From Nemertoderma westbladi (taxonomy: Eukaryota; Animalia; Xenacoelomorpha), in NCBI GenBank assembly GCA_032718475.1, contig JAUCBJ010004635.1, positions 1 through 48,690 on the forward strand: 48,690 nt of DNA. Direction: 5' to 3'. The translations under genes were made by a program, and so were the position numbers. The first letter of the stretch is position 1, and each line of letters starts with the position of its first letter. Shown one piece after another: positions 21,731 to 47,889 of the stretch. The notes beneath the pieces are model-generated. The model did not search any database. It saw only the letters and a list, made by a program, of their open reading frames with translations, and was not told where the DNA came from.

Positions 21731-21788
21731 GTTCGTCCTCTGTCTGTGTCTGGCAGTTACAGTTCGGCAGGCCTAGAGTTAGGACTGT

Positions 21789-24700: not shown

Positions 24701-26114
24701 GCGAAGAATAAACTTCGGTTCGGAAGGGCACATGCAGACTGCAGGACATACTGTAGGCCTTACTGCACATACTATTATAGGCCATGCTGGGAGAGATAGA
24801 GTAGGCGATAGGGTAGCGCGAACGACGGGATTAAACCCGGAAGTCGCGGAGTACATACCGGTAGGTAGGCGAGAGGTAGGTAGGCCTATATCGGTACAGC
24901 AGCATGACTATAATACACAGGGACATAACATATATCCAGGGGAGGGGGAGTTATTGGAGATAGACGTATGGGCCCCAATGTATTAACATCAACCCCAGTA
25001 CCAAACATACCGGCTGGGGGGGGGGACAGGGTGACATTCCCCCATCACAATATCGACAATATACCCCGATAGGAGCAAGAACATCGAACTCCCTGGACGA
25101 GAACAGGTCGTGCGGACAGTCACCACCACACGCGGCCATACAGGGGACTGCTAGTCCACAGTTAGCTGGTAGCAGGGCCACACCGTGGCAGGGACAGAAA
25201 GAAAATAACACCATAAAATAAACACAATCCCAATATACCCAGTAGGCCGAGTCTAGACAATCGAAACATTAAATCGGTACATATAAACCTAAGCGCGATA
25301 CGTGAAGGACTATACAGGAAACGCTATAATCCAGGATTCCAATGTCAATTACATCGGGACGGAACCCATAAGACCAGGAGTTGCAAGTACTGGCAAGCGT
25401 TGCCCAAACGAGATCGTGTAGCCTACACAGACGCAAACGGACTATGTCATCGATGTGTGGTAAAAGGACACAGATCCGGAGAGTGTTGGAAAGGGAGAGG
25501 ATGTGAAAGGACTAAACCAGGGGCAGAGAAGCCCATTAGCAAACATAAGGGAGTCGGGAAAGTAGAAGGAGGCGTGTTGCATACACACGCAGGACTGACA
25601 CAGTGCGAGGGGGCATTACATGGGCAGACACCGCATATACCGAGGGACGAGCGGGGGTCGTCGAGGGCTTTAATGCCAGTGCACATACGAAGGGGGAGGC
25701 CAGCAGGGGTAGCACCGAAGAGAGTGTGGCGAAGAGTTAGAGGACGTATAGGAGGGCAGCAGGAGAGTGCCTACTGGAAGAAGGGGCACGTGAGAGTTTT
25801 TAGTCGTCCAAGGTTTTGGACTGAGGGGGGTGGGAATGAGGGCGAGACGCCCTTCCCACGCATAAAATATAAAATAATTATTTAATTAAAATAAGAAAAT
25901 AATTAAATAATAGAGTAGGCAGAAGTTAGTTAAGAGGTACATAGTACCGATAGTTAGTTAGTTAGTTAGGAGGTACGTAGTACCGTTAGTTAGAGAAGAG
26001 TTAGAGGGTACGTAGTACCGTTAGTTAGAGAAGAGTTAGAGGGTACGTAGTACCGTTAGTTAGAGAGTTAGAGGGTACGTAGTACCGTTAGAGAGTAAGA
26101 GTTAGAGGGTACGT
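21789..26114 (+). mobile_element. Element B: inverted, internally deleted sibling of A (LTR 3' part 21789-21976, gag from 22032, tail repeats to 26114)
   Basis: Reverse-complement similarity to 16740-21785 (MSRE..TPPRTP, MQTAGHTVGLTAH, DRVAYTDANGLCHRC); Gag core and protease deleted. Confidence 0.88.
25965..26114. repeat. ~31-bp tandem repeat (GTTAGAGGGTACGTAGTACCGTTAGTTAGAG), about 5 copies
   Basis: Direct reading; a single inverted copy lies near 15965-15990. Confidence 0.85.
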
Positions 26115-26227
26115 AATTGATTCGCTAACAACCGGTCAGGAGGTGATACTGCCAACTCCGTTAGCCCCGTCACAGTCAAAACTACCGAATTAAAAACTGT
26201 GACCTCAACAGGACGAAGAGGCCAAAG

Positions 26228-26767
26228 ATGAGCGAACACACGCCCCAAGTTTTGGAAAGGGGAGGAACACCGCCGAGAACCCCGAGCGACAGAGACCAAA
26301 CGATTCGGGAGGCGGCGACGAGCCGGCCCGCCACACTGGATTCACCAACGAGGGACGCTCCGGACATCGAGGAGGAGGGCGGCCGAGTACGAGGAGGAGG
26401 GGAGTTCGAGTCGACGCGAGATCCTAGCGGCGGACGAGGTACCGAAGTCGCCGGCCAACCACTGGCCGAGGGCGGCGAACGGCCCACCGGAACGGCAACG
26501 GTGGGGCCAACTGTACGGCGCCGGACGAGGAGGGAAGGCAAAGTCCACGAGGAAGACATCGGGACGAGCGATCGCATGCGACGAGGATGCAATGCCACCA
26601 AGAGGATGTTGAAGGACGTTAGGGAGGGGAGAAAGATAGACCAGCCCAAGTTATATCAGAGCCTAGGTGAGTGCAACAAACACTTTCGCTATCTAGTCCG
26701 ATTTGGACAGGGGGAACTAGCAAGTGTGAGGGCGAGGGGGGTCGCCAAAGAACTGTTTGAATTATGG
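26228..26767 (+). pseudogene. Gag N-terminus of X
   Basis: Homologous to the starts of the A and B ORFs (TPPRTP..D.TIREA, GTATVGPTVRRRTR, ELFELW). Confidence 0.8.
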
Positions 26768-26794
26768 CGATCTTGTGACCTTGTGTGTATATTG

Positions 26795-27743
26795 TCACTT
26801 CTTGTCCTATATTTTGCGCTAGTTCACCCTCACATACTTTATGGCATTACTTTATGGGGCAACAGTTATAACACAAACGTAAACAAAATAAAAATTAAAG
26901 TAAATAAAATAATTCGAGCCATTACCTTCAGTCACTACCAAGCCCATGCAGCACCAATATATAAATCCCTCAAAATTCTTCCGTTAGATAAATTGTTTGA
27001 ACTCGAAGTAAATCAATTTATGTTCGATATACACAAGTTTAATAATACATATCTACAGGACATATTTTGCCCCACTAGCTCTATCCATCATCACTTTACT
27101 AGATCTGCATCAGCGAAGAACTTTTTTATTCCTCGCGTTAGACTAGAACTTTCCTAAAAATCTTTGAAGTATTCAGGCCCCAAAATCTGGAATGAACTGC
27201 CCCCAGTTTTAAAAAATTCGAAATCCAAAAAATCGTTATCAACCAAGCTAAAATTAATATATCTTGATTCGTTATAATCAATTTACATAACAATTAAAGA
27301 TGCATAATATCACAAATACAGTAAAATTTTCAACATTTTTATTCTCGAGACAGGTCCCAGCTAAGGTAAATCCTCGTTGAAGTAAGCATTTTTTTCTTAT
27401 AAACAGATGTTTTGGAATGGGTTGTGCTATCGAGTCACCCCCCCCCCCCCCCTCTTCCCTCTCCCAATCCACCCCAAGTTTCACAAATACATACATAGAT
27501 GACTTTTGCGTACGGTGGCAAGCTACACTAGCTTTGCTACAGCTTATAGCCACCGGGTGCCGTTAATCCCAGTAAACATAAATATTTTTTTTCTCGTACT
27601 GTACTGTACTACAGTGTCATGTACTGTAGTTATTTGGTGTTGGGGTGCAATTATATTCTATCAATATCTGCTATGTATCCCAAATAAAGGCCCGGGCCAT
27701 CCCGGATTGAAATTGAAATTAAAAATTGAAATTGAAATTGAAA
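26795..27743 (+). mobile_element. 3' fragment of a CR1-group LINE sitting where most of the gag of X is missing
   Basis: LYFALVHPHILYGITLWG...HAAPIYKSLKIL...HHHFTR; 3' UTR; (TTGAAA)n tail. Confidence 0.85.
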
Positions 27744-27744
27744 T

Positions 27745-29135
27745 ACCAGTACCTGGATGACATCGATTTCTCCGAACCAAAACTGGACGTCCCGAAAGTC
27801 AAAAGTATAGTCGGCATGGATTGCCCGACAGCCCACGAGAGACTACAGACCGTATTCGGCGAGGATAGGGAGCAAGACCAGATGGCGATTCTCACGCCAT
27901 TCAGATGGACGCTCAGTGGCCCAATTAAGACCAGAATCCCATTTAGCGTGTTAGAATCCTCAGGGTGCATGTTCGGGGGACAGTGAGGGAAATGGAGGAT
28001 GAAGGAGTAGAGGAACAACTCAAGAGGCTGCTGCGGCAGGACTTCGAGGGGTTGACTAACGGCAAGAGCCTGCTGAATGACTACCTGCTGGAAGGCCCCA
28101 ATATTTTCAACTCGGGGATAGAGGTCCTGTTAAAATTTAGGAATGGAAAGCACACCTTCACGTGCGATATAGAGGGCATGTTCAATCAGGTGCGAGTGAC
28201 GGAGGAGGACAGCGATAGTCAGCACTTCCTATGGTACAAAGGCGATGAAGAACCGTCGGAGATACCGATGTATAAGATGGTAGTGCAGAACATAGGGGCC
28301 AAGTCGTCCTCGTTCACTACGACTACAGCTGTGAGAGACACGGTGGAGGGTAGAGAGGGAGAATACAGTGAGAAGGCGATCGACATGATTCATCGCGGAT
28401 TCTATGTGGATGATGGGATGGGATCTGGGAACACGGTTGAAGAGATACTTGAGATAGGGCGCGAAGTTCGCGACATCCTAAAAGGATCGGGATTCAATCT
28501 CACAAAATTCCAATCCAACTCTAAAGAATTTATGGAGGCCATAGAAGATAAACAGCCAGAGATGAAGCCTACAATGGTGTAGGGGCTGATTATGGTGGAC
28601 AAAAGGATGGAGTCGCATCAGAAGGCGCTAGGGATTGTATAGAACCAGGAGACGGATGAGTTGGAGTATCAACTGGGTCAGGAGGGCGCCGGAATCCATA
28701 CTAAACGAGGCTATGTGTCGTACATAGCGAGGATTTACAATCCCCTAGGTCTAGCATCCTCGTTGTTAGTCACGGGGAAACAGATATTAAAGAAGGTGTA
28801 TAAGCTGAAAGACGATTGGGACGTTAAGGTCCCGGTGGAGATAAGTAGACAATGGGACAAATGGACGGGGAGCTTCGAGGAGATGGGGACGTATAGTATG
28901 CCACGTATATACTTCCTGGACGGAGACATGACCGATTTGGAACTACATATGTTTTCCGACGCATCATCCTTGCATATCCTTGGAGGCATATGGAGCGGCG
29001 CATTATTTGGTACAGCGAAAGGGGGCTCATAAGCCCAGGCTTGCATTTAGTAAAGCGAGGTTGACGCCACCAGATTCAGCATCAGTGCCGAAACTCGAGT
29101 TAACGGCTGCGAGATTAGGAATGAGGGAGACAGCA
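27745..29135 (+). pseudogene. Decayed pol of X: protease tail, Pao RT and RNase H
   Basis: IVGMDCP, LNDYLLEGP, DIEGMFNQV, FYVDDG, GFNLTKF.SN, YNPLG, LHMFSDAS, KARLTP, PKLEL; several stops and deletions. Confidence 0.9.
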
Positions 29136-30690
29136 TGCTAGCGCTTTTAGTAAATTATGTTCATTCAATCTCAATTTTGTGTAATTTCGAGCTTGTATTA
29201 ATTGGAGCTGAGAACTCATGCATTTATGACGTATAAACCACTGGTCTGTCACAATAAACAGGATTGCGCTAGTGTACCTGTCAACAAGGGCCGCTTACTG
29301 TATCGGTCATAGCTTCCCCTTTGCCTTCCTCTCATAAATTGGTTTAATATGGTATTTGATTATCTATTGTATTTGACTGAGATACGATACCGGGAGGGTG
29401 TGACAACACAATATAACAAGCAAATGGCCGACTAACTAATTCTGTAAGGACTCAAGTGCGGTATTTGTGTTTCTCTTTAGGAGAAACGTATAGTGACTTG
29501 CCTTTGTACGATTATATAAATATTTCTATCGTAATTAATTTATGACAACTCTCAATCGTGGTACAATTAATAATAAGAGCCTTTCTTATATTAATGGTCT
29601 GGTATATCGCCATATATCAATTATTTAGTAAGTCAGAGCTAGAGCAACACACTTCTATTACAATTGTCCAGATTACCACTGATACTTAATTGCATAGACC
29701 CACCTTGTATTTGACGCGTGTAAAATCTCCTTGATTACGTAATATCGGCGGTATAATCAACAATGAGAGAGCAAATTATATTCAACGACAGAACAAATTA
29801 CAAGTACAAATTATAATTCAATTCAAGCATTTACAATATAATGTACATCGCCATTGTACATAATAACATCGTACATTGACATGTAATAAATACCACTGGC
29901 TACGGCTCAAACAGGGGTATAATACATCTGCATGAGAAGTAATCTCTGCAGAACTCCACATTACACAGTGCACAAATCAACAGGTATTATAATATTATAT
30001 ACTTAGGGGGATCAATGTAATTGTTATAAGCCAATAGGAGATCACTTGCTCCTTGGGCGTTCCATGTAACAATAAGTTCAAATACAGGCATGATAGCACT
30101 AGATGGCGTAAGAACCTTTTCACTGGAGAATAATCTCATAAATTATTGAAATAATAACGTAACTGATAAAAATACAGTTATTTGAATAAATTGGTAAAAT
30201 AAGTAATTTTAAAGGCAGGATTTATGCCTGCAGCAACACTACTTCCATTCATTTAGCTACCAGGGATGCAACGGTTCAAGTTCGTACATAAAAACTAGTC
30301 TAATAAGTAAATAATTCAGTTATCAACACCAAACTAGAATTATACAGAGCGTACGTAGTTAATCATATTATAAAAAACATCTCAACTCGTGAACAAACAA
30401 TTAAGAGTTGCCAAATGCTCATGACTCCTTAAGCAGTTAAGTTGTAGTGCGAGAAGCATTTGAAGCATATAAAATGTTTCAGTTTATAATAAAAATAAGC
30501 TAAATGAATTCTTGGGGACACCTTTACTTATTTTTCATATAATATAAAATAAAGATATGAGTCATATAAAGTAAAATAGAGGTAATATAAAGAAGTGTCA
30601 AAAATCAATGTCTATTTATGACTTTTCTTCTTTTTGGAAGAGTGTTTATGTCGCTTTGTCGGCGGCGAATGATTATTAGTTGCTTTGCCC

Positions 30691-33600
30691 TCATACTTGC
30701 AGCCCTTCAGCGGCAGAGGGATGAATCTCCAATGAATCTGGATGGGGCGCAACAGCACGTAGTGTGGGTCCTCCAGTAGAAGTTCCAGGTTGAGGTTCAG
30801 TTGTTGTGGTAGTCACTGACGCGGAGTATTGCAACAACTTTACGCCTTTTCTAAGTACCTTGGCCGGTGAAGACCTGGAGGAAGGCACCAGGGTGGATTG
30901 TACTGCCTTTTTAAGAATTGCCGCAGTAACTGGTCCTTTGAGAGTTTGCGATGACGTCGCAACGCCTCCTCTGTCGGAAATGAACTTGGGTGGCTTGACA
31001 GTCTCTTCAGCAAGACGCTCCGTATGACGAAGGTACGCAACTCGATCTGAAGTTTGTATCAACTCAGGCTTTCCAATTGAATTCAATCAGGTTGTAGGTC
31101 GTAATGTTACCGGGGTTCATACGATGGAGAAAGGTCCGCACATACTGAATGTTAGTAAGCTCCGAAATGGTTAATAATAATTGGTAGTCCGGAAGGTGGG
31201 ATCTTTGTACTTCAATAGCGAAAGAATAGGGATTGAATGCAAAGACTCCGCAATACGAGAGAGCAGACTCGTAGCGTAGGCGCGTGACTTGATGTAAGTC
31301 AGCGGAATGTTCCCACAGTTTAATATACTTCAAGAGAGATGTTTCGTTGTCCCGTTGGGTCAAGTCAAAGGGGCAAGAGCCTGGGTAATGCCCTTTAAGA
31401 AGACATTTATCGCATTGTTCCACGAATTGCAGGCAGTTGAAGAAGGTATGATCGTCGAACAATCTTCAATACGGACAATGGAGAGGAAGGTCTGAACATT
31501 GTAGATAGGTTTGACAAATCTCGCCGGTAGGTGGCGCTTTATGTGCATGGGAACCACATTGAATGCAGCGCTTCCGGCCTTGAGACACGGCTGAGCGGAT
31601 GGCGAATCTCGTCAAAGGTTGTGGTCCAAGGAGCCACGGTATAATAAACTCACCATCATCATCCAACTCAGAAGTGGGATGGACGGATTTAGATTCCAGG
31701 ATATTGTCAGTTGCGGAATCGTTTAGATAAGAAGCCAGCTGTTTGTCCGAAGTTTGGACAATCGAAACCGAATACCCAGACTTAAGGATGGGGGGTTCCA
31801 GAATAGTAGAATGTAGGTTTTTAACACATACATCCTTAAATATGGCGAAACCCTTTCGATTCAAATCCTCGAAAGCAGAGAGACGTTTATTTACCTGTCC
31901 CTTCAGGATGTGATCACGGAACTGACTATCAATACCAAAGAAAGGGAATAAAAACCTTCGAAAACATTCGAAACTTTGGAACTTACCTTCACGGTTGACT
32001 TTGGCAAGCTGGGTGCCGAGAAGTAAGGGGTGAGACCTCAAAGTTCTACTACAAGTATCGGCCAACCAACCTGACAGCAGAGTTCTCGTAAATCATATAA
32101 ATAGCCAAAGAAGGCCAAAGGGGGACACTAATATTGGAATAAACTGCACCCGGAGCGGTTAAGGGACCATTAAAATAATAATGGGAATAATTATCACCGT
32201 ACAGATTTAAATAGCGGTTATACCGACCTTCCTTGAAATCCCAACCGAGTTCATGGAATGAGATATGTCCGATGCCGGTACGTTCGGCTCTGCGCATTCC
32301 GCTTCCCACGCATTTGTAAATAACGCGGAAAAAGCCACGTTCCTGAGCCCACGGGAGGATCATTTGCATGTCCGCAAAGGGGTAAGGAATATCTAGCAAC
32401 GAGTCGAAATCCTTGTATAGGTCGGGGTATATTGCTGAACCGAGTTTACAAATCCTCTTGTTGATCAACAGGTCAAGGACGGGTTGCGGTAACATTGAGG
32501 GTTCGATACCAATCGCAGGGTGCCGCTTGGTTTCAATGACATAACGGTAGGACTTTTCGAACTGTCCATGCCGAGGTAACATTTCCTGGAAGGACAGAGG
32601 GGTAAAAGATGCATTAGAGCTACGGGAGGTTCACGTGAATACATGAGTGGCTCCGGTGAGACCATGGATATGTATTAACCGTGTGGTGCTGAGTTCATCA
32701 TTCGAAACCGAACCTTCATTGTCGTATAGCATCACACCATACTGTTGGATAATCTCGAGCGTGTTATTAAATTCGAGATACGCAATGGTTTCGTCCACTT
32801 CAACTGGCGTCCATAAGCTGTCGAGGGATCCGATGGAGCCTCGGGCAATAACTACCGATTTGTAACTTGGACGTTTTCTACGACAGAGTTTTCTTTCATC
32901 ACCGTAGAGAGTTTGTCTTCCCGAATCCCAGTGAATTAATTGATCACTAATGAAATTAGCGAGATTACGAGGAGGTGCGGGTTTGTCTTCTATAGTTTGT
33001 ATATTAAAAGGTTTACGGAAGGCGTTCAGTTTAACCACGTGATCGAGATGTTTCTGCAGGGGTTCGATTTCCATAACATCGAGAGAATTAACTAAAGGTA
33101 GAAAATCCATACTGCAGGCGGGATCCTCGGGTTTCATTACGTACCGTTGATCGAGGAGAATGAAGTACGGATGGTCCTGAATCCCATAGAATGGGGGATG
33201 GAGAGATTCTTCCAGATCTTTCCAGATTCTTTTCTCGGATCAATGACTTGATTTGGTCGGTTCGACCAAGAGGAGCGATAATCCACTGGTCGGTTTCATC
33301 GAGAAAGGGCTCAGCAATGTGGGTTTCCAGCATTGGAGCGTCGGCGACCAAGTTAGGGTTAGAGATGTCGGTGTCGAAAGGTATCGTTCGGGTTTGACTG
33401 TAAGCGACACCGAAACACTTTACAGACCCGGACGGATCAGCTTACGCATTACCTTGGAACCCTTCCATAAGAGTTTGGACCACGGGTTGGACCAAGGAAG
33501 CTAGCCCTCGCTCGTCGTTCAAACGTTCACGCTCCATCTGTTCCTCTTCTTCACGAAGACGTTGGCTTTCTTTTAAGGCGTCTGCGAGGGAAATGGGTTT

Positions 33601-34894
33601 TCCCTTTTCGATTTCCTCTTGTATGAGGCGGACTTTGGACTCGAACTCTGGGAGTCGCATCCGTCGGATGACATCAAGTTTACCGGATAACTTGATCGGG
33701 TCATCAACGCCGATAGAGTTTCGTAGGGAATCCAGAAACTCTGTAACTAGATAGTTACGATTGACCTTAGAGGTTCGGGCAAAGGTGAGGGGGGAGGTCC
33801 ATATGGATTCCTCACGCTGTAGCAGACTGCCACAGCCGATACTGATCATAGAGGGTTGGAGAGGGGTTGGCTCTTCCTCTTGGTAGCGGGGAACTATCTA
33901 TTCTTCCATGATGAGGTCTCGGAAGTACATGTACATGGCTTCGGAGAAGCGAGGATCGGTCGGGGATAATGTCATGGCTTTTACCATGGGCAACATCGGG
34001 CCGGGAGAAAACTCCGGAATGCGGATCATAGGTTTACGTACTCTGTGTAGACCACGTAACCGTTTCTCATCGACATTAAATCGATTTTCCTCAAACCCAC
34101 CGTATGAGTACTTTACGTATCTATGGCAGGGACATCGCCGATGGGGATGGTTCGCAGGCGTAGTGGAGACCTGTTGGTTGGGATGCGGGAATTGACCACA
34201 CAAGTACCAGAGCCAAAAGTCAGTTTTGCTCGGAGATGGGGGACTTCGCACCAGATTTGCAGTACTCCTCCATGTCGTAGAAGGCGTCGGGGAGGACAGG
34301 GAGCGGGCAACCTTCGGTAAGGTACATCATGGTGTGATAGAGTCATTTGATCTCTTTAGCGGGATCAGGATGAACGCCTCTGGGGTATAGAGTTTGTAAA
34401 TCCTGTTGACTAGCGACCTTTAGGTATGTCTCACGGAGGAATATAACATAGTCCTTGAACCGGGAGAGATGAGAAGAGTTCTCTGTGTCGTCGTCCGCGA
34501 TATCAACACGAATCTGGTAGTCGTGTTGAGTTTGAATCTCGTTTCTACGTTGCCGCTCAACATGAAGTTTGAACATCTTCATGTCCCATTCGACGTGATG
34601 GTCATCAATGTCCCGTAAGTCCATAGGGTGACCAGTAGTGAAGAAGTTGTTGTAACTTCCGTCGCATTCGGTATATTTGAGAATAAACTCATGATATTGT
34701 TGTTCGATGTCGCACTGTTCGGGGTTCATCGGCGGTTCGATGTAGCTTCCTGAAGGATCCATACGCGGTTCCATACTTTGGACGAGCTGGGTGGATTCAC
34801 CGGTATAGTCAGCCATCATCGTATCCATCATCTCCGAATGTTGTTCCAGAGAACGTCGCTTTACGGAAGAGGGTGTCTTTAAAGATCGAGACAT
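30691..34894 (-). pseudogene. ~1,400-codon extra ORF: DEDDy 3'-5' exonuclease-like domain plus two zinc knuckles
   Basis: Chain of abutting ORFs. ExoI VMLYDNEG, LIHIHG, LPQPVLDLLINKRICKLGSAIYPD (ExoII), FADMQ, TGIGHISFHELGWDFK, PLT....YSNIS (ExoIII position); CIQCGSHAH-X8-C and CDKCLLKGHYPGSC. Confidence 0.75.
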
Positions 34895-35839
34895 TATGAG
34901 TTCGAGTAGATAAGTGTATATAGGGGTAGGTGAGCGTCACCGCCCCAAAGCGCCGAGACACGCTGCAGCGCAGTCCCTGGTCAATCCCTTATGGCAAGAA
35001 TCGAGTTTGCAACTACCAGCAGTACCGAAATATCGTGGCTAAATGCTAAACTCTCTTCAAGCCAGGGAGACGGGGGACTGGCCCGGAGTCATCACTGATC
35101 TATTGCGCCTATAGTATCTATGGAAGGTTGGACAATTGTGTGTACCTTAAATCTCACACTATTTATGGGTCTTTCACTCTATTTAGCTTAATTTGGTGCT
35201 TATTTGTGCACTTTTGGCTAACATTCGTTCAAAATACGGTTCAAAAACGCTTAACTTTAAACATTTACCAGAATGTCACTGTTTTATGTATCCATGATAA
35301 CAATGTTACCTTTCCCATACAAGCTGTGTTAAGCAATAGCATTTACAGTTGTACGAGTTCTAACTATGTTTCCTGGGAGACACGTTGTTTCGTTGTTATT
35401 TAATTAATTTTTCCGTGACATATTGATAAATAGAAATTAGAATGCTCACCTCTCACACTTATTTCACATTAGTAACTAGTGTAATAGTTATTTGGGCATT
35501 TATGGCGATATTAATTTTGGTTATTATTATTAATTTGTATTAAATACAAAATTTTTGAAATTTTTTCGCATATTTCTATGCTGGTAACGTCACACAAATC
35601 CGCTTCCACGATTGAGTATTGTCGTTAGTAATTAGTCACTTATTTTGAATTATTTAAGTTTTAAGTCAAATAATTTACTATTAAATTAAATTGTTGCACA
35701 TGTTGCGATCATATACAATGTACAATTATCAGAAGTAGGTTTTATTGCTATGTTGTACACCGCTGTCTAATACTAATACCTACATTATACCAAGTGGTTA
35801 ATAATAATTACACACTCAATCGTAACCTATTACAAGACA

Positions 35840-36403
35840 TTATTCAAGTTTGTATGTTAGACTGCTGGGTCGAACTCTCTGTTGCCCGTAGTTACCAGAA
35901 TGTTCCCTTGCCAGTTCTAATAAACAAAGGCGTCCGATGGGTCGGTTGAAATAGTGTACTTTCGGTTTAGGTGTAGCTCTCCAAATAGCCAGTTCAACTG
36001 AGCGAACCAAACCATCTTTTCTTTGATGAATTTCTGTTATCCGACCTGTTTCCCAGTTTTTTCTAGGTTGGTCTTGATCCACTAAGAGAACAATGTCGCC
36101 AACTGACACATTTACCTTCTTAGAAAACCATTTGGTTCTGAGCTGAACCGACGGTAAATAGTGTCTTTCAAAATGTGTGGCAAATCGACGGGATAATAAT
36201 TGCATCATTTGCCAGGTGCGTCTCAACAGGTCATCACCGTCCTGTGGTGTGGATTTCGGTAACATGGTTACAGGTTTTCTCAACATAAAATGGGATGTTG
36301 TTAGTGGCTCCATCACTTGTGGATTAGATGAAACAGGTAAGAGAGGCATATCATTTAAATAACTCGCTATTTCCTCTCCGCTTCCATGATCCTGACGGGT
36401 CAT
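35840..36403 (-). pseudogene. BEL/Pao integrase C-terminal region of Y
   Basis: LNDMPL, PLTTSHF, YLPSVQLRTKW, VGDIVLL, W..GRI, DGLVRSV, RPIGRLCLL. Confidence 0.9.
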
Positions 36404-36537
36404 TGTGAATGGATGTAGCTATTAGAAAGGTGTTCAGAGTTAATATTATTATTTAAAGTTTCGTCATTGGTTGTTCTTTCATTTAAAGTCTTAATAGAAG
36501 GATCGGTACAGAACCAACCTATCCTCATTCTACCAGC

Positions 36538-38188
36538 CTACGTGGTCAACGGTGGAGGGGAACTGGGGAACTTTTCCAGGATTTCCATAGCCTCCGGTGC
36601 GTTCTGGCCGATCAATAGTTGGACACCTTGGCGGTCGAGTTTATATCTCGGTATGTTGTTGTTTTTTACAAAGTCGTCGCTATCCCAATCATACATTGGT
36701 GCCTGGCTTTCTGCGAAATTCTTTATGGCTACCATTTTAATATTATCTAGTTTACCCACATTATAAATGTCTCCTGGGTTGGACAGTGAAACCTTGTAAT
36801 AACGAGTTTGAATAACTGATTGCCAAATCTGCATTACGCCCGAAAGATTAAATTTCATTGGGTGTCCATCATTCTCGTCAAACAGTTCGTTGGCAAGGTC
36901 TTGGTCTATAAATGATCTTGAACTACCAGTGTCAAGTAAGGCGTTTACTGTGATGTTGCGGTTGTTATAATGTAATCTTACTTGCAGAACGGGGAATTCG
37001 CGAACACCAATCGATTTTGGGCCGGATGTTTGCTGTGATATTTGTTCATCTGATGTTTGTTCTGGAGTGGTTGGCGACTCGTAGGTGATGGCTTCATACA
37101 CCATTACGTGGTTGCAACTTTCATTATCGGTCGCAAATTCGTCTGTGTCGAATTCTTGTTCCAAATATCCAGAAGAATCGTAGGGTGAATGATCAGTGAA
37201 CGGAACTTTTGCTTCCATGTGCGGCACCATGTCTTTCTGATGTAAGAGATAATGATGGTTACCATTACATTTAATGCATTTATATGTATCCTTTAGATAG
37301 CACCTGTTTCTGCTATGTCCGGGACACAAACATAGGAAACATACTCTAAGTGTACCAGCGGTTTCTCTTTGCTTCTCGAGTGATAACTTGATGAACTCAG
37401 GACATTGTGATAATCTATGGGACTCTTTACTACATAACGAACAGCTGGCATAAGTTACGGTCTTAATAATTGGTTTAAGGGTTTTTACCTCAGTATGCAT
37501 TACTTTTTGGGTTTTAAGAGTTCGGTCACGTGAGGGTCTGTCCGAGTGATCTTTGCGTCTAGGAGATGGAGATCTAGAGTCCTTTCGCTGTTGTGCCGCT
37601 ACGTTTAGTGTTATCCGATATATGATAGGAACTCTCATTTTCCTCTAATTCTTCTTCGCATGTAGACAAATCAGTTTGATATACTCGTTCCCGACGTTTA
37701 GCTGTAGGATTTTTATCGAGTTTCGGGTCCGCGTTGCGTTCACGGCGTTGAGTAATCATAAGTAGTGAGGATTCGTAATCGAGATATTTTAGGAAGTCCT
37801 TCATGCCTAGAGCTGATTTGTTATTAAGTTGCGCATTGAGTACGTTGGATACTTCTACTTCTTTAATCTCGTCCACAAATTCAATCATTTCAGTACTTAT
37901 CAAACGTTTGCGATTAACCAACTTTCGATACAGATATTGCGCTATAGATGCCTCATCTCCGTATCTCTCATGTAATAGTTTCCATAATTCTTCTAATCCT
38001 TGTGGATGTCCAATATATCTTTGCACTAATTTCTTTGGATAGCCTTCTAAACAATCAATGAGGAAGCGTAGTTTCTCACTATTTCGTAATGGAGAACTAA
38101 ATATACTATCCTTTAAATATTCTCTGAATGGAAGCAATTTTAACTCATTTCCATCTAATTTAATAATTTCACCAACTTTAACAGCTTG
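36538..38188 (-). pseudogene. Gag core, three zinc knuckles and protease of Y (frameshifted)
   Basis: LWKLLHERYGD; CSLC..H....C, CFLC...GH....C, CIKC...HH.LLH (BEL triple knuckle); ALLDTGSSRSF. Confidence 0.9.
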
Positions 38189-38193
38189 ACGCG

Positions 38194-38505
38194 TGTATGG
38201 AGGTCACGACTAACTGTGGAGCCGGAATAATGTCGGGCGTATAATATACAGGTAGTGACCATACAAGTACAAACAACAACAATGCTGTGCTGGGCCGTCT
38301 GTCTGGCAGTGCGCCCTATGACTGGAGACCTAACTGTACTGATTACAGGACTAGCTAACTGCTGTCTATCGGTCGGTGGTATCCTGAGTCTGTGTCAGGG
38401 CGTAGTCTCTGAATCCTGGTGAGTCATCCCTACAGTACCGCAGTCCCTGAGTATCTGCTGGCATATGGGGCGAGCCATGTAGTGTGGCGAGTTTGTATCA
38501 CTACA
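38194..38505 (-). repeat. 3' LTR of the Gypsy element
   Basis: Two mismatches to 43070-43381 by eye. Confidence 0.97.
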
Positions 38506-38540
38506 CCCCCCTTCTAGTTCGTTGCGGGGTCAACGAACTC

Positions 38541-41500
38541 TCAGAGTCTGTTGGGGGGACGCCTCAAGCGGGAGGGGTAGGCTCTACGAGGCCGATCGAG
38601 TTGTTGAGTGGGGGGAGTGTCAGCCCAGTGTACGCGCTTCGGTGGCGTTGCAGGTGATCTTGGGCCGTTGCCCCTCGGTATCCCGATGGCTGTTGGTGTG
38701 AGTGGGGTGCACTCTCGTGTGCCGGTAGCGGTGGTGTCCCGGATGAGGTGGCGGCGGTTACGGGTGAGGCATCGACTGGAAGGGGTACGTACGGTGTACT
38801 TCCGGTTGGGTCTTGTTTCCGTGACAATCCCAGTGCGGTCCCATCGCTTCGAGACTGGGTTTTGAATTCGGACCGGGTCCCCTACAGCGAATGGAATAAG
38901 GGGTTTGGCTCCGCGATTGTAGGCAGCCATCTGGAGGCCGTGGAGCGAGGGCAGTGCCTCGTCGAGCTCCGCGCGGGTCAGTTGGTGTTCCCGGAGGAAA
39001 GCGCGGCTGTGCATTGGCACTCGCGACCGTATGGGGTGCCCAAAGAGAATCTGGGCCGGCGACATTCCATGGGCGCGGGGGGAATTTCTGAGTTCTAGGA
39101 GTCCTTCCTGGAAAGCATCGGAGTTCATTTTCCCCCCGGTCTTGGTGAGCAACGCCTTGAGTGCCTTCATGGCAGACTCCGCGTGGCCATTGCTCTGGGG
39201 ATATTCGGGAGATGATACGACGGGATCGACCCCCCAGACCTGGAGGAAGTCGGTAAAATTCTTTCCAGCGAATTGTGGACCGCCGTCGGAAGCGAAACGT
39301 AAGGGGGCGCCAAAACGCGTAAATACGTCCCTCGCATGCGTAGCGGTAGAAGCAGAGGTTGGGGGATTCCCGTATTTGTAGACTTCGGGCCAACCGGAGT
39401 AACGATCCGCGATGGCGAGGAAGTTGTGACCGTCGAGTGCGAAGAGATCTCCGGAGATTTCCTCGAATGGTCTTGTGGCCTCGCGCTCCCGTAGCATGGG
39501 TTCCTTCGCGAGGCTGGGGCGTCGAGTGAGGCAGGGCTCACAGGACTCGACGGTGGTCCGAACGTTGTTTGTCAGTCCGGGCCAGTACACTGTCTGGCGG
39601 GCGCGACGTAGCGTCTTCTCGACTCCTTGGTGTGCGGCGTGGAGGCGCGCTAGAGTGTCCCGGCGGGAGGCCCACGGGACTACAATCCGTTGTCCGTAGA
39701 GGACGAGGTCGCGGTCGGATGAAAGTTCATCGCGTAACGACCAAAAGGGTTGGACACCAGGGAGTTGGCGGGACGGCGGCGGGAATCCGGTGCGAACGGC
39801 GCCGAGGAGGTCGACGTAATCGGAGTCGGCCCGAGCCGTTGCAGCCAAAGATTGGAGGAGTAGATCGGGGTGGTCGTCATCCGGATCGAGTTTGTCCCCC
39901 ACAATTGTTGCAGCCACCTGTGACGTTACAGCACATAGGTAGTGGCCCATGTCTCCGTCGTCAACAAGATCATCATCGGATGGGTCGTCTACAGGGGAGT
40001 GGGACAGAGCATCGGGAATGCGGTGATCCTTTCCTCTCCTCCAGATGGTAGTAAATACAAAGGAGGAGAGTTTCGACTTCAGTCGCTGGATCCGTGAGTT
40101 GTCGTTGGCATCCAGCGTCTGGCGGTCGAGGATGGACACCAGGGGCTGGTGGTCTACCACCAGCGTGAAATGTGGGAGTCCCACGAGGTAGAGACGGCAC
40201 TTGTGGGCGGCCCACGCAACAGCGAGGAGCTCCAGCTCCACCATCGCATAGCGCGACTCGGTTTCCGAAATAAATCGTGAACCGCATTCTACCAACCTCC
40301 AGTCGGTCCCATGCCGCTGAAGTAGCGCGTATCCCAACCCGTTCTTCCTTGAGGCGTCAGTCTCGAGCTTAGTGTCGAGCTCCGGATCGAAGGAAGCGAG
40401 GATGGGTGGGGAGACGAGTGTGCGTTTGGTCACCTCGAATGCCGCCTCGTGGTCAGAGTTCCACTCGTATGGATTCCTGGAACGGAGGAGGGGGCGCAGG
40501 GGGGACATCGTAGCCGAGATGTCTATAGAAAATGGGGTGAGTTGCTCGACCAACCCAACAAAGCTCCTCAAGTCTGTAATGTTGGTTGGTCGAGGGAAAT
40601 CCGTTATGGCGCGGACCTTGGATGGGTCTGCCTGGATGCCGTCGGCCCCGGCAATGTAGCCTGCAAACTTAACTTTGGGTTGGGCGAGTTGTATTTTGTC
40701 AGGGTTGAGTGAGATGCCGGCTGTACGGCATCGTGTGAGGAACCGTCGGACACTGGCGATGTGGTCGTCCAGGTTGTCGTCGTATAGAAGGACGTCGTCG
40801 ACGACTTTCACCATACCGGGAAGTCCACGCAATGCGTCGTCGCCCCGGCGATTGAATTCGTCCCCACTCGATATGAGTCCCATTACGCCCCTCCTATACT
40901 TATACCGTCCCCAGGGGGTTACAAAAGTGGTGAGGAGTTGGGATGCTGGGTCGAGGGGGACCTGCCAATAGCCGGCGGCGGCGTCAAATACCGAGAATAT
41001 CTTAGCGGTCGTGGATATCCCGGTAACCGCCACCCGCGGGCTCGGGGTGGGGTAATACGGCCGCTTAACCTGGTCGTTCAGGTGGCGGAGGTCGACGCAA
41101 ACCCGGAGTTTCCCATTGGGTTTGCGAGCAACAGTGAGCGGGTGGGCCCAGTCAGTAGGTTCGGTGACCCGCTCGATGACTTCCCGTCGTTCCATCTCGT
41201 CCAGGTGGGCGCGCACCACCTCGTCCCGCAGCGCAAATGGTATAGGCCTCGCGCCGTTTGCGTGGAACGGGGTGGCGCCTTCCTTCAACTCAACGTGCAT
41301 CGGCTCGCCGGCCATCGTACCGAGCGGTCGATCGGTGTCGTCGAATACATCGGCGAATTCGTTGAGGAGGTTCGCGCGTAAATGTGCCGTAGGATCGGTT
41401 ACAGATGCTACAGAGGCGATGGGATGAGGGAAGTTGGGGTGGAGGAGTTTGAGATCGACGAGTGACCGGAAGGAGAGGATGAGTCCGTCGACTTCCGGGG

Positions 41501-42953
41501 AGACGCCGATGTTCACGATCGCCGAGTTTCCTGCGAAGAAAACTCGGGCAGCAAAAACTCCCATTATCTCCAGTGGAAGGTCGTTGGCGGCGCGTAGATC
41601 CGCAGTGGGGTGAGGAGTAAGGTCCTGGTTGCAGCCGCCCATCCGGTAGAAAATCTCCTGGCTTAGCACGGTGGCTGCAGCGCCGCTATCCGCGAGGACA
41701 TTGCGTATGATTCCGCATACGTCATCATCGTCCACGCCGCGCACCTCGACCTCGATGCGGGGGAGGTCGCAGGCGAATGTTATTGAGTTTATCGGTCCGC
41801 CGCCCGTGATCGTGTTCACTCTCAAGGCGGGTTTACCCGTTCCTTTGCCGCCCCTGGAACTGGGTTTATGTACCGAGTCGGAACGACAGACTGCCTGGAG
41901 GTGGCCCCACTTTCCACAGTTATGGCATTTCGTGTCTTTGGCGGGGCAGTTACTCTTTCCCGGAGGGTGACTGCGCCCACAGTTTCGGCATACTCCGGAG
42001 GCATTAGATGCGTGTTCGGGCGGAGGTGGGGTTTGCCGGGAGGTCAAACGCCCACGTTTGTACGACGACGTGAGTTTCGTAACCGGGGTCCCACGCCCGA
42101 TTATTGAGTCGTTACGCTCGCTCGCCTCCATCGATTGGCAGATGCGTACGCAATCCTCGAGGGAAGGTTGTGGAAGAACCTTGAGGAGTTCGGTGCGGGT
42201 CTCCGACGAACGGATGCCGACCAGGATCTGCGTCACGATCTGTCGATTCCGACAGTGTTCGCAAAGTTCCGCGGCGTCGCCGAGTTCCTCCAGGGCGATC
42301 CGGAACGAGTCGAAGTTTTCGTTCGGGCCCTGTCTCCGGTCGTGGAACTTTATTCCATCGATGGCGATACTGCGCTTTGACCGGAGGTGCGCCTGGAGGG
42401 CGTCGAGAACCGTCTCCACGGTGGTTGCGTCGTCGTCGATGTCGACGTTGAGCGTCACGGTGAGAGTTTGTTGTAGGTCTCGACCAATTGCGGATATTAG
42501 CGAATAAACCTATTCTTCGCGTGGGAATGTGGATGCTTGTTGGCGGTGTGCGTGGACTCGCCAGGCCTCTCGCCACCGATGGAACGAGGTGAAGTCGACA
42601 TCGCTATCGATTTTCTCGAGATCGCGGATATCGATAACGCGGCGTTGTGGTTGACGTGTCGGTGCGGGTTGTATCGGACCGGCCCCGCCGGGATTGGCCA
42701 CACCCGCGCCCGATTGGAGTGCGCCCATCAGTTGCGCGATCTGCGCATTGGCCTCGGCGCGCTCGCGTGCTGCACTGTCCTGCTGGTGTATCAGCATTTG
42801 AGTTAGTTTATCGAGGCGAGCGTCTGCGGCCGCCTCGCGTTGAGTGGCGTCAATGTCGCGTTTTGCCAACTCCTGACGCAAGTGGTTGAGAACGTCGATG
42901 GCGGGTTCAGTGTCGTCCGAGCCCTGTTCGGAGGGAGTTCTGTGGTCGGCCAT
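38541..42953 (-). CDS. Gypsy Gag-Pol polyprotein, 1,470 codons in one frame with one internal TAG at 42510-42512
   Basis: CRNCGRSH and CHNCGKWGH knuckles; LADSGA; LRVCVDL; VVDD; TDAS and ELEL RNase H; HAAH..CEPC; SDGGPQF and SNGHAE integrase. Confidence 0.93.
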
Positions 42954-43069
42954 CAGTTCGCTTCTGCGTTACTCGGGGTTTGGGGTTATGCAGACAGGAG
43001 TACCGGTAGGTCCGTAGGTTTAGGATTGCGTGGTGGTTTCAGTTCACCAACACAAACACAACTGCGCCA

Positions 43070-43381
43070 TGTATGGAGGTCACGACTAACTGTGGAGCCG
43101 GAATAATGTCGGGCGTATAATATACAGGTAGTGACCACACAAGTACAAACAACAACAATGCTGTGCTGGGCCGTCTGTCTGGCAGTGCGCCCTATGACTG
43201 GAGACCTAACTGTACTGATTACAGGACTAGCTAACTGCTGTCTATCGGTCGGTGGTATCCTGAGTCTGTGTCAGGGCGTAGTCTCTGAATCCTGGTGAGT
43301 CATCCCTACAGTACCGCAGTCCCTGAGTATCTGCTGGCATATGGGGCGAGCCATGTAGTGTGGCGAGTTTGTATAACTACA
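43070..43381 (-). repeat. 5' LTR of the Gypsy element
   Basis: Followed on the minus strand by PBS TGGCGCAGT. Confidence 0.97.
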
Positions 43382-43386
43382 ACGCG

Positions 43387-45020
43387 CTTCAGTACGCAGT
43401 ACGCGCTAATTGGCGGGTAAAACTATCTTGAGCTATAGTACTATTAAACATTGAGTTAAAAGTAGAGTTATCACAGAGGCCTACATTAGACTGGGGGGGC
43501 CGGTAAGGATCATTTATATTATTAACATTTTGTGTGTCATTTTGGGGCCCAGTGCCATATTCAGGGCCTTTAACATTGGGTGAGATAGGAAGGCGTGATA
43601 TATTTTCAGCTTCAACACCGTTTATATTTGAGGCTTTCTTTAATATTTGGTATTCAGGGGAGTCCGGGTTCCTGAATACTGTAGCCTTGTTAGAGGTGAA
43701 GAGGTCCTGAGAATTAGCCAGCTTTTGGTGCAGCTCCTCTAGAACCTTGGCGGCTTGCGCAGATTCATTTCGTAATTCTTGTAGCTGACAATGTTGTGCA
43801 ATCTGAAATTGCTCGTTGTTGGCAGCTTCGTCATGCAATTGCTTCAAATGCTGCTGTAATTGTTGCCGCTGCTGCTGCTGTTTTTCCAATGCTTGCCATT
43901 GTTGCTGATTGTGTTCATTCACTATCTCCCTTTGACTATTTAATCGATCTAATTCAAAATCGATATTTGTTAATTGTTTCATTTTATTATTTACAGCTTC
44001 CTGCATAGCTTGCAGGTTTAGTGCGGACTCGTTTACTCTATCCCTATAAAGGGAGTCCTTATTTGCCCGGGCGACCTTTTTACTCGCCCCTGTGGGCCCC
44101 ATGTCCCCCACCGACTCAACCGAACCGATAGACACGGCCGGCCATACGGCGGCATGGTGTCTATCATGAGAGTCGGTGATGGGGGATACGCTAGGGCCCA
44201 GAGTTTGAGTGTTATGGGGATGGGCGAAGGCGGTACTAGACATTCTGTCCGCCAGCAAGGGAGTTGGTCGCACCTGTTTAGGTCGAACAGTGGGCGTAAC
44301 TATTCGGTCCCTATATACTGTAGAAGTTTTTGTCATAAATTTTCAGTCTGACTACTCGCTACAGTAGTTGTCGTAATACCAAGTGATGTTACTTTGGTCT
44401 GAGTTACATTTGCCACTGATTTTAAATTCGGCTTAGAGGGATTTATTAATATGACAGTGCGGGGAATGAGATTGGGAGCCGCTAAAGGCGTATTAATAGG
44501 TTTGAAAAAGTCAGAGTCGGAATCACGGAGTGGGAGTTCCGGGAGACGGCGGCGTTCAACTCTTTCCAAGCATCTTCTGCTCCTGGAAGTTCGAGATTTA
44601 TCCGATGTTTTATCGAACTCGTTGGAAGATGTATAGCACTCTTGTTGTTTGGTTCTGCTTTACTTTAACTGAGTATCCGACTGTTGTTTCTCTATGGATT
44701 CGATCTCATTCAGTATGATCTCCCGGTCCCTTACCGCTTGTTTTCTGTTTCGTTCCGCTACGAACTGATTTTTGCATTCCTCTCGTTCCCGTTCCGCCTC
44801 GAGCTTTCGCTCTTCTGCCTTTCGCTCCTGCGCTTCGTACTCAAGCCGTAATCATTCGTCTTCCGCTTGATTGTCTAATTGTTTTAATCTATTTTGTTTT
44901 TCCTCCTTGATCCTATCCAAATTCGCTTTTCGTTGGGTTGCTAAATCCATGTCTTTGTCGATATCTTTTAGGATTTTCTTGGTGGTGGGACTAGTTGGGC
45001 AATGTCCATGCAATCTCCTT
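43387..45020 (-). pseudogene. Coiled-coil, Gln-rich Gag N-terminus of Y
   Basis: ORF pieces 43389-44336 and 44333-44569 plus upstream E/R/K-rich frame; joins 38188 in frame after removing the Gypsy element and a 7-bp duplication. Confidence 0.75.
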
Positions 45021-45563: not shown

Positions 45564-47606
45564 TTTAACACATACATCCTTAAATATGGTGAAACCCTTT
45601 CGATTCAAATCCTCGAAAGCAGAGAGACGTTTATTTACCTGTCCCTTCAGGATGTGATCACGGAACTGACTATCAATACCAAAGAAAGGGAATAAAAGCC
45701 TTCGAAAACATTCGAAACTTTGGAACTTACCTTCACGGTTGACTTTGGCAAGCTGGGTGCCGAGAAGTAAGGGGTGAGACCTCAAAGTTCTACTACAAGT
45801 ATCGGCCAACCAACCTGACAGTAGAGTTCTCGTAATCATATAAATAGCCAAAGAAGGCCGAAGGGGGACACTAATATTGGAATAAACTGCACCCGGAGCG
45901 GTTAAGGGACCATTAAAATAATAACGGGAATAATTATCACCGTACAGATTTAAATAGCAGTTATACCGACCTTCCTTGAAATCCCAACCGAGTTCATGGA
46001 ATGAGATATGCCCGATGCCGGTACGTTCGGCTCTGCGCATTCCGCTTCCCACGCATTCGTAAATAACGCGGAAAAAGCCACGATCCTGAGCCCACGGGAG
46101 GATCATTTGCATGTCCGCAAAGGGGTAAGGAATATCTAGCAACGAGTTGAATTTCGAGGAGACGATGCCAGTGATTTGAGAAAGTGTGAGACAATTGGGG
46201 TTACTATTCCCAACTTGTACACAGTGTTACAACTCAGAAAACACAGGGCTTCCAGAGTTATTTAACTATATTCGAATATTATAGGTGGGAGTGTGTTTTT
46301 AGGCTATAAGCGGCGTTTTTTCATGTTACTACCTACAGAACCAGTTAAAAGGTTATAACTTTTGAGGAGACAGTGCCAGTGACTTGAGAAAGTGTGAGAC
46401 AATTGGGGTTACTATTCCCAACTTGTACACAGTGTTACAACTCAGAAAACACAGGGCTTCCAGAGTTATTTAACTATATTCGAACATAATACGTCGGAGT
46501 GTGTTTTTAGGCTATAAGCGGCGTTTTTTCATGTTACTACCTACAGAACCAGTTAAAAGGTTATAACTTTTGAGGAGACAGTGCCAGTGACTTGAGAAAG
46601 TGTGAGACAATTGGGGTTACTATTCCCAACTTGTACACAGTGTTACAACTCAGAAAACACAGGGCTTCCAGAGTTATTTAACTATATTCGAATATTAGGT
46701 GGGAGTGTGTTTTTAGGCTATAAGCGGCGTTTTTTCATGTTACTACCTACAGAACCAGTTAAAAGGTGATAACTTTCGAGGAGACTGCCAGTGACTTGAG
46801 AAAGTGTGAGACAATTGGGGTTACTATTGCCAACTTGTACACAGTGTTACAACTCAGAAAACACAGGGCTTCCAGAGTTATTTAACTACATACGATTATA
46901 ATACGTGGGAGTGTGTTTTTAGGCTATAAGCGGCGTTTTTTCATGTTACTACCTACAGAACCAGTTAAAAGGTTATGTATAGGTCGGGGTATATTGCCGA
47001 ACCGAGTTTACAAATCCTCTTGTTGATCAACAGGTCAAGGACGGGTTGCAGTAACATTGAGGGTTCGATACCAATCGCAGGGTGCCGCTTGGTTTCAATG
47101 ACGTAACGGTAGGACTTTTCGAACTGTCCATGCCGAGGTAACATTTCCTGGAAGGAGGGAGGGGTAAAAGATGCATTAGAGCTACGGGAGGTTCGCGTGA
47201 ATACATGAGTGGCTCCGGTGAGACCATGGATATGTATTAACCGTGTGGTGCTGAGTTCATCATTCGAAACCGAACCTTCATTGTCGTATAGCATCACACC
47301 ATACTGTTGGATAATCTCGAGCGTGTTATTAAATTCGAGATACGCAATGGTTTCGTCCACTTCAACTGGCGTCCATAAGCTGTCGAGGGATCCGATGGAG
47401 CCTCGGGCAATAACTACCGATTTGTAACTTGGACGTTTTCTACGACAGAGTTTTCTTTCATCACCGTAGAGAGTTTGTCTTCCCGAATCCCAGTGAATTA
47501 ATCGATCACTAATGAAATTAGCGGGATTACGAGCAGGTGCGGGTTTGTCTTCTATAGTTTGTATATTAAAAGGTTTACGGAAGGCGTTCAGTTTAACCAT
47601 GTGATC
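45564..47606 (-). pseudogene. Second copy of the exonuclease-domain segment (equals 31820-33044), split by a satellite
   Basis: 45564-46147 matches 31820-32404; 46976-47606 matches 32414-33044; scattered SNPs. Confidence 0.93.
46152..46975. repeat. ~208-bp satellite, 4 copies
   Basis: GAGGAGAC recurs at 46156, 46364, 46572 and 46778. Confidence 0.95.
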
Positions 47607-47713
47607 ATGGTGTGGCCTTAACCTCAAATAATTATTGTTAAATTTTTATTTTTAATTATTTTTTAAAATAATAAAGTATAATTAATAATAATAGCCTACA
47701 TCGCCGCACTTAC

Positions 47714-47889
47714 TTTGAGTAAATCGTAACTAAATTCGACACGAAAGTGATCAAACGTAAGAACAATTTCGGTGCCAGAAGCGCCCTGGATTAGATAACT
47801 ACAATCCGCAAAGCTAGGATAATTCCCGGGGTGGCCAGGTGACTGTATTACATTGCTTGTCAATTCATTGTAGTTGGTGGCTGGACAAA
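47714..47889 (-). CDS. Host gene exon: N-terminal half of CUB domain (CPATNYNELTSNVIQSPGHPGNYPSFADCSYLIQG...FDHFRVEFSYDLLK)
   Basis: 176 nt; acceptor catttttag (phase 1), donor gtaagt (phase 0); SP..P..YP...C motif; phase matches exon 11316-11478. Confidence 0.92.

What the first reader, a model, noticed from the sequence alone, without database searches (positions are those of the whole stretch)
30691..34894. BEL/Pao retrotransposon apparently carrying a large DEDDy exonuclease and zinc-knuckle cargo gene
Seen: about 950 bp downstream of the integrase end and on the same strand, abutting ORFs rebuild a ~1,400-aa protein with no signal peptide or TM segment evident, so it is not env-like. Region 32060-32810 has motifs in the order of WRN/EXD2/Mut-7-type DEDDy domains: YDNEG (32712-32726), LIHIHG, LP..VLDLL....I.KLG..I..D (D at 32421), FADM, G...IS...LG..FK, PLT....Y. 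Two knuckles follow, one a perfect CX2CX4HX4C. Known: relatives such as Mut-7/Nibbler, EXD1 and Egalitarian act in small-RNA trimming and RNA transport. I do not know of this cargo in BEL/Pao elements. Inference: an element-encoded RNA-processing or anti-silencing factor.
Basis: partly seen in the sequence, partly recalled or inferred. Interest (0 to 1): 0.9.

Follow-up and report, generated by a model that had tools for sequence, protein, structure and literature searches.

The report
BEL/Pao retrotransposon carrying a pseudo-exonuclease gene
A decayed, repeated BEL/Pao jumping gene carries, after its integrase, a broken extra gene for a very large protein whose middle likely descends from an RNA-trimming exonuclease but lacks one of the four catalytic residues, so it probably bound RNA rather than cut it; such cargo is known from Gypsy-type elements, and our searches found no BEL/Pao case.

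Summary
945 bases after the BEL/Pao integrase end lies a same-strand gene broken into nine pieces (about 1,280-1,400 codons), with no membrane segment and one perfect CCHC knuckle. No library or database search recognised it. ExoI Asp/Glu and ExoII Asp are present; the ExoIII Asp is absent from both window copies, so it is best read as a likely pseudo-nuclease. Sequencing contigs show many diverged copies and tie integrase, spacer and cargo together in other copies. This copy is dead: most of pol is missing, a Gypsy element sits in gag, and no LTRs were found, so 'before the 3' LTR' is unproven. Selection, expression and function were not shown. DEDDy third genes are published for bdelloid Gypsy-type elements, and this scan noted several more Gypsy cases on other DNA; none in BEL/Pao turned up. 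Verdict: new variant of a known kind, moderate interest.

The parts
30691..34894 (-). Broken third gene (ORF3) of the BEL/Pao family, about 1,280-1,400 codons in nine pieces; the last piece (31086-30691) is doubtful
   Evidence: frame change at about 31075 not matched by a gap record 27
32085..32735 (-). Highly diverged DEDDy-like (RNase D/WRN type) domain with two long insertions; ExoI Asp 32723 and Glu 32717, ExoII Asp 32423, ExoIII Tyr present but no Asp after it
   Evidence: ordered-block test; own profile; alignment
31514..31567 (-). Non-canonical knuckle, CX2CX4HX8C
31373..31414 (-). Canonical CX2CX4HX4C zinc knuckle
   Evidence: about 0.00025 expected by chance
34895..35839 (-). 945-base AT-rich spacer (35% GC) between integrase stop and ORF3; not an LTR by self-comparison
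   Evidence: tied to integrase and to ORF3 in other copies
35840..36418 (-). BEL/Pao integrase C-terminal part
   Evidence: DUF5641 E 2e-20
36538..38203 (-). BEL/Pao gag (DUF1759-like, two CCHC knuckles) and aspartic protease; pol between protease and integrase C-terminus is missing
   Evidence: DUF1759 E 1e-4 (below cut-off), Asp_protease_2 E 0.001
38194..43384 (-). Nested, nearly intact Gypsy-type element inserted into the BEL/Pao gag; 321-base terminal repeats 98.4% alike, 5-base target duplication
43389..45010 (-). Broken N-terminal coiled-coil part of the BEL/Pao gag
   Evidence: no Pfam match; assigned by position across the target duplication
45564..47606 (-). Second, partial copy of ORF3 (equals 31820-33044, 98% alike), split by four 208-base tandem units and placed upstream of gag
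29152..30690 (-). Non-coding region after ORF3 (33% GC); no LTR recognised; ends against a plus-strand pol fragment of another BEL/Pao family

Best explanation
This is a dead copy of the third gene of a repeated BEL/Pao retrotransposon family, and its product was likely a large soluble RNA-binding protein built on a probably non-cutting DEDDy exonuclease fold plus zinc knuckle. Shown: position and strand after integrase, many diverged copies, three of four acidic residues in motif order, no fourth Asp, one canonical knuckle, no membrane segment. Inferred: the domain is DEDDy-derived (moderate statistics); without the ExoIII Asp the two-metal site would be incomplete; domain and knuckle together would grip single-stranded RNA 3' ends, most simply the element's own RNA, shielding it from trimming or steering it into particles. 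The target RNA and any effect on silencing are untested.
For: Own HMM: 1.9 bits, 3 of 2,000 shuffles. MAFFT puts identical residues at 8 of 13 family-conserved columns, 2 of 300 shuffles; the ExoIII Asp column is one of the five missed. At 32368 all contig depth in three runs reads another letter, which by hand gives Asp-Thr-Gln, the commonest triplet there in the family (11 of 37). Linkage in other copies: a joint from 35151 to 35908, a diverged contig joining 34054-34169 to 34976-35102, and a contig over 35765-36070. Diverged cargo pieces show 629 substitutions with 52 gap letters against 123 with 85 in non-coding pieces (rough). DEDDy plus CCHC fingers binding RNA is shown for trypanosome RNase D (PMC7797062, section 13 read); inactive RNA-binding DEDD derivatives (EXD1, Maelstrom) are named in PMC5408684.
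Against: No match in Pfam, NCBIfam, PHROGs or PDB sequences, none among 1.84 billion representatives. Profile-profile probability was under 2%. The single-sequence fold failed (pLDDT 30); the second fold was seeded with DEDDy sequences and is circular. Purifying selection is not shown: only 4 of 7 sites where both window copies differ from the runs are silent (0.30 expected). No contig spans integrase to the domain, no LTR was found, and third-position GC differs from the BEL/Pao genes (0.49 against 0.37, P 1e-8).
Confidence: 0.5

Rival explanations
1. The same BEL/Pao third gene, but an active or atypical 3'-5' exonuclease that would trim the element's RNA or small RNAs.
For: ExoI Asp/Glu and ExoII Asp are kept. 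A second Pro-Leu...Tyr register 14 residues later has Glu four residues after the Tyr in the first copy (32102-32085), and bdelloid ORF3s tolerate an Asp-to-Glu change (DEED, PMC5408684). Only dead copies could be read.
Against: That register scores -4.3 in copy 1 (2.6 in copy 2, where the Glu is not present) against 2.6 for the Asp-less register; alignments choose the Asp-less one. No other letter at the ExoIII codons is among the 40 best-supported rows (211 rows not shown) or (1,085 not shown).
Confidence: 0.22
2. The gene is real cargo, but the DEDDy likeness is chance and the protein has another or new fold.
For: All library and database searches were blank; scores are weak and post hoc.
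Against: Three differently built tests agree on the same motifs with 0-3 per 1,000-2,000 or 2 of 300 shuffles; the site at 32368 moves towards the family triplet in other copies.
Confidence: 0.14
3. The gene belongs to another repeated element or is a passively carried host fragment that merely lies next to this BEL/Pao copy.
For: No LTRs enclose it in the window; different third-position GC; the window is a tangle of nested and rearranged elements; a fragment also lies upstream of gag; depth over integrase end and spacer is about twice that over the cargo.
Against: Integrase-spacer and spacer-cargo joins recur in other, diverged copies; depth over gag and cargo is of one order; no introns or transposase are seen in or beside it; few gaps among diverged copies.
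Confidence: 0.14

Closest known systems
DEDDy ORF3 of bdelloid rotifer Juno and Vesta LTR retrotransposons and of Athena/Terminon elements (PMC5408684, passages read; PMC6431247, passages read)
   Same: Non-env third gene after pol, DEDDy-type domain, no membrane segment, function untested.
   Different: Those passages name Juno and Vesta, and the paper does not contain the word Pao; their catalytic residues are intact (DEED) and they show strong homology, whereas this one lies in a BEL/Pao family, lacks the ExoIII Asp, is barely detectable and sits in a protein of about 1,300-1,400 residues with a CCHC knuckle. Sequence kinship could not be tested.
Trypanosoma brucei RNase D, PDB 7c42 (PMC7797062, abstract and section 13 read)
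   Same: DEDDy domain followed by Cys/His zinc fingers; the fingers supply RNA binding.
   Different: A cellular, active, U-preferring enzyme of about 350 residues with four fingers; here one canonical and one odd knuckle lie about 170-240 residues behind the domain.
WRN exonuclease, EXD2, Mut-7/Nibbler, RNase D, Rrp6; inactive EXD1 and Maelstrom
   Same: Order of ExoI, ExoII, post-ExoII Asp and Pro-Leu...Tyr motifs as in the WRN and Mut-7 alignments shown.
   Different: 14-22% identity to the bacterial relatives, two insertions of 20-45 residues, no conserved Gln, Trp register or ExoIII Asp. No subfamily can be assigned: the seeded model ties them all (Z 9-11).
BEL/Pao (Belpaoviridae) LTR retrotransposons
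   Same: DUF1759-like gag with knuckles, protease, DUF5641 integrase end.
   Different: Extra 4.2-kb non-env gene; this copy lacks most of pol and recognisable LTRs. That some BEL/Pao elements carry env-like third genes is recalled, not from a call.

Membership tests
DEDDy 3'-5' exonucleases (PF01612 group) | ExoI Asp-x-Glu at the end of a hydrophobic strand | tested here: met
   32723-32715
DEDDy 3'-5' exonucleases (PF01612 group) | ExoII Asp after Leu-Leu...Lys-x-Gly | tested here: met
   32423-32421; best block, 10.2 bits
DEDDy 3'-5' exonucleases (PF01612 group) | ExoIII Tyr-x3-Asp | tested here: not met
   Tyr present, Ser in place of Asp in both window copies; alternative register has Glu in copy 1 only
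DEDDy 3'-5' exonucleases (PF01612 group) | Match to the Pfam model | tested here: not met
   no family at E up to 10
DEDDy 3'-5' exonucleases (PF01612 group) | DEDD (RNase H-like) fold from an independent model | tested here: inconclusive
   unseeded model pLDDT 30; seeded model pTM 0.61 is circular
DEDDy 3'-5' exonucleases (PF01612 group) | Two-metal 3'-5' exonuclease activity | not testable with these tools
   needs an assay
Mut-7 / EXD1 / Egalitarian subfamilies | Grouping with these proteins in a tree | not tested
   no animal sequences of these families could be fetched (one search gave one protein); signal too weak for a tree
BEL/Pao LTR retrotransposon | DUF1759-type gag with knuckles, protease and DUF5641 integrase end in order | tested here: met
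   (DUF1759 and protease below curated cut-off, DUF5641 above)
BEL/Pao LTR retrotransposon | Reverse transcriptase and Pao RNase H between protease and integrase | tested here: not met
   missing from this copy; other copies not checked at that junction
BEL/Pao LTR retrotransposon | Flanking LTRs with primer site and polypurine tract enclosing the cargo | tested here: inconclusive
   none found; both ends are disrupted by other repeats
ORF3 of an LTR retrotransposon | Same strand, downstream of integrase, linked in more than one copy | tested here: met
   joints and diverged pieces (piecewise, no single spanning contig)
env-like ORF3 | Signal peptide and transmembrane segment | tested here: not met
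   hydropathy maxima 0.1 and 1.04
Bdelloid DEDDy ORF3 pool (Juno, Vesta, Athena) | Sequence kinship with those ORFs | not testable with these tools

The most novel reading that the evidence does not exclude
A BEL/Pao lineage encodes its own large pseudo-nuclease with zinc knuckle that caps or shields RNA 3' ends and so blocks the host's small-RNA trimming or RNA decay: a retrotransposon-encoded mimic of EXD1/Egalitarian-type factors, showing that disabled DEDD domains were recruited independently in a third retroelement branch.
Probability: 0.15. Interest if true: 0.8.

Novelty: new variant of a known kind. Interest (0 to 1): 0.47.

Why it matters
If right, exonuclease-derived third genes are not confined to Gypsy-type and Penelope-like elements but also occur in BEL/Pao, here in an unusually large and apparently non-cutting form with no detectable relative among 1.84 billion representative proteins. 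That points to repeated recruitment of an RNA-end-binding module by retroelements and gives a concrete candidate for asking what such cargo does. The copy itself is dead and the function is untested, which caps the interest.

Tried and rejected
Blank searches with the domain or knuckle region: Pfam, NCBIfam, PHROGs, PDB sequences, 1.84 billion representatives (20), word-seeded homologue searches (limited length classes), plasmids, metagenome contigs (25), viral contigs (59). An integrase query in metagenome contigs gave two 26-residue hits; the one inspected was a bacterial PNPase region. No whole genome is held. The ESM Atlas gave no answer. Single-sequence AlphaFold failed; the seeded model and its fold matches were set aside as circular. 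No RNA holder was listed, which says nothing on expression. The 400-base repeat at 45169-45562 / 14338-14738 was tested as the element's LTR and rejected as unproven: its depth is 1,200-80,000 against 100-2,300 for gag and cargo, and its flanks match in an unrelated copy. The spacer 34895-35839 and the region 29152-30690 have no second copy in the window. Silent/replacement counts did not show selection; the two window copies differ by 4 silent and 15 replacement codons, as in neutral decay. A second, family-B-like exonuclease remnant at the C-terminal end stayed weak (Pfam E 0.018; 11 and 48 of 2,000 shuffles, no hit with a third profile). Literature searches for a BEL/Pao exonuclease cargo found none; these cover open-licence full texts only and cannot match a slash in 'BEL/Pao' in every spelling. 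No supplements were read.

Full report
Setting. The window is a tangle of animal repeats; no whole genome is held. On the minus strand a BEL/Pao element runs from a gag start near 45010 through a nested Gypsy-type insertion (38194-43384, terminal repeats 98.4% alike, 5-base target duplication) to a DUF1759-like gag part, two knuckles and a protease (38203-36538), then almost at once to the integrase C-terminus (36418-35840, DUF5641 E 2e-20). Reverse transcriptase, RNase H and most of integrase are absent from this copy.

The observation. The ATG at 34894 lies 945 bases after the integrase stop. Nine same-strand pieces sum to about 1,397 codons with five stops and four frame changes. Some breaks are confirmed as decay by other copies: the stop at 32633 and the frame change near 32090 are open in the second window copy; of two contigs across the change near 33200, one differs in length as a continuous frame would need and one does not (records 11 and 22). 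The last change, near 31075, is spanned without a gap by a contig with 18 differences (record 27), so the protein may end at 31064 (about 1,276 codons). There is no signal or membrane segment. One knuckle is canonical (31414-31373, about 0.00025 expected), the other is not (31567-31514).

Is the domain DEDDy? No library says so: Pfam, NCBIfam, PHROGs and PDB sequences were blank, as were 1.84 billion representatives and two word-seeded searches. I therefore built a profile from 37 fetched domains under 62% identity (EXD2/WRN-like, RNase D, NrnC-like, Pol I); an alignment of 21 of the EXD2-like ones finds WRN, Mut-7, EXD2 and Rrp6 in the PDB. The HMM scores the cargo at only 1.9 bits but on the ExoII stretch, reached by 3 of 2,000 shuffles. 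Four layouts were run: 3 of 1,000 and 2 of 1,000 shuffles reached the score, then 1 of 2,000 without ExoIII and 0 of 2,000 with ExoIII split. Cargo tiles ranked first among 720 six-frame window tiles each time, once narrowly (7.1 against 6.7), and above 77 unrelated proteins. Members score 116-185 bits against 7-22. MAFFT gave identity at 8 of 13 conserved columns, 2 of 300 shuffles. One semi-independent point: at 32368 the whole contig depth of three runs reads another letter; by hand this makes Asp-Thr-Gln after ExoII, the commonest triplet in the family alignment (11 of 37). I put the DEDDy origin at about 0.8.

Catalytic site. ExoI Asp and Glu and ExoII Asp are present. In the register that all alignments prefer the ExoIII Tyr is followed four residues on by Ser in both window copies. 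A second Pro-Leu...Tyr register 14 residues later has Glu in copy 1 but scores lower there and abuts a frame change. No other letter at these codons is among the rows shown, but 1,085 and 211 rows were not shown. A defining DEDDy feature is thus not met; the domain is filed as DEDDy-derived, not as a member.

Is it cargo of the element? Four runs were laid (at most three samples, one possibly the source). Three cover all 30 bins of 29000-38300, with most pieces under 99% alike; summed depth over the cargo in X1 is 130-720 where pieces identical to the window have about 44, which suggests several to a dozen or more copies though depth is no copy number. Links in other copies: a joint from 35151 to 35908 (X3); a contig with 29 differences joining 34054-34169 to 34976-35102 (X2; the joint is in X1-X3); a contig over 35765-36070 and overlapping ones down to 35009 (X4). 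No contig spans integrase to the domain. The repeat at 45065-45562 proved to be a separate very-high-copy element, and no LTR pair was found, so the cargo is shown downstream of integrase but not inside LTRs. Its third-position GC (0.49) differs from the BEL/Pao genes (0.37; P 1e-8), which fits a captured gene as well as a separate element.

Was it kept by selection? Among the 64 listed pieces I used 28 in the cargo and 9 in non-coding or foreign sequence, leaving out repeats of one contig in another run, gag and integrase pieces and several short or identical non-coding pieces: 629 substitutions with 52 gap letters against 123 with 85. That suggests coding constraint but is rough. Substitution classes do not show it: 4 of 7 sites where both window copies differ from the runs are silent (0.30 expected), and the two window copies differ by 4 silent and 15 replacement codons, as expected after death.

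How it most likely works. Shown: position, copies, motifs, missing Asp, knuckle, no membrane segment. Inferred: an incomplete two-metal site, so binding rather than cutting; knuckle-assisted grip on single-stranded RNA ends, by analogy with trypanosome RNase D, whose zinc fingers supply RNA binding (PMC7797062, abstract and section 13 read), and with inactive DEDD derivatives EXD1 and Maelstrom (named in PMC5408684). The simplest substrate is the element's own RNA. An active trimming enzyme (0.22), a chance likeness (0.14) and an unlinked neighbour (0.14) remain.

What is known. PMC5408684 (abstract and 12 passages read, plus a word count showing no 'Pao') reports DEDDy ORF3s with intact residues in bdelloid Juno and Vesta elements and in Athena/Terminon elements; PMC6431247 (four passages) repeats this for Terminons. 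Six searches for a BEL/Pao case found none (listings only). This scan's unchecked notes list Rrp6-like and dead DEDDh third genes in Gypsy or unnamed LTR elements of other genomes, one with a knuckle, and none for BEL/Pao or for this sequence; they lower the surprise of the cargo type and were not tested here.

Verdict. A real, dead, multi-copy third gene beside BEL/Pao integrase, probably a DEDDy-derived pseudo-nuclease with zinc knuckle: a new variant of a known kind, interest 0.47; 0.8 if it proves to be a counter-silencing mimic (probability about 0.15).

Noticed in passing
window 45065-45562 and 14285-14738: A very high-copy repeat of about 500 bases, composite by depth, whose high-coordinate end runs into a short GC palindrome in other copies; no Rfam match. 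It replaces the leader of the BEL/Pao gag here.
   Followed up: partly
window 36538-36400: Protease is joined almost directly to the integrase C-terminus. If other copies share this, the family would be non-autonomous yet keep gag, protease and the cargo; not determined.
   Followed up: no
window 31230-31064: Weak likeness to the ExoII region of family-B polymerase proofreading domains at the end of the cargo (Pfam E 0.018; 11 of 2,000 shuffles at best); a possible second exonuclease remnant.
   Followed up: partly
window 38194-43384: Young Gypsy-type element with an open 1,322-residue gag-pol frame, 98.4% alike terminal repeats and a 5-base target duplication, nested in the BEL/Pao gag.
   Followed up: partly
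window 15300-29150: Several broken copies of a second BEL/Pao family in inverted and head-to-tail arrangement, with a polypurine tract and LTR start at 15351-15327 and a pol fragment at 27700-29150.
   Followed up: partly
window 46152-46976: Four 208-base tandem units (95% alike) sit inside the second cargo copy, between the ExoII and post-ExoII motifs.
   Followed up: no
window 29280-29704: Loose ends and a depth peak suggest a separate high-copy insert of about 420 bases in the region after the cargo.
   Followed up: no
window 47696-48016: A CUB-domain coding stretch (Pfam E 5e-8) on the minus strand, probably a host exon, so the repeat cluster may be intronic.
   Followed up: no
window 1-7600 and 11732-12450: A 2.17-kb tandem unit in about three copies at 99-100% identity, and a 63-base minisatellite of 11 units; a tRNA-Asn gene at 8177-8248.
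   Followed up: no
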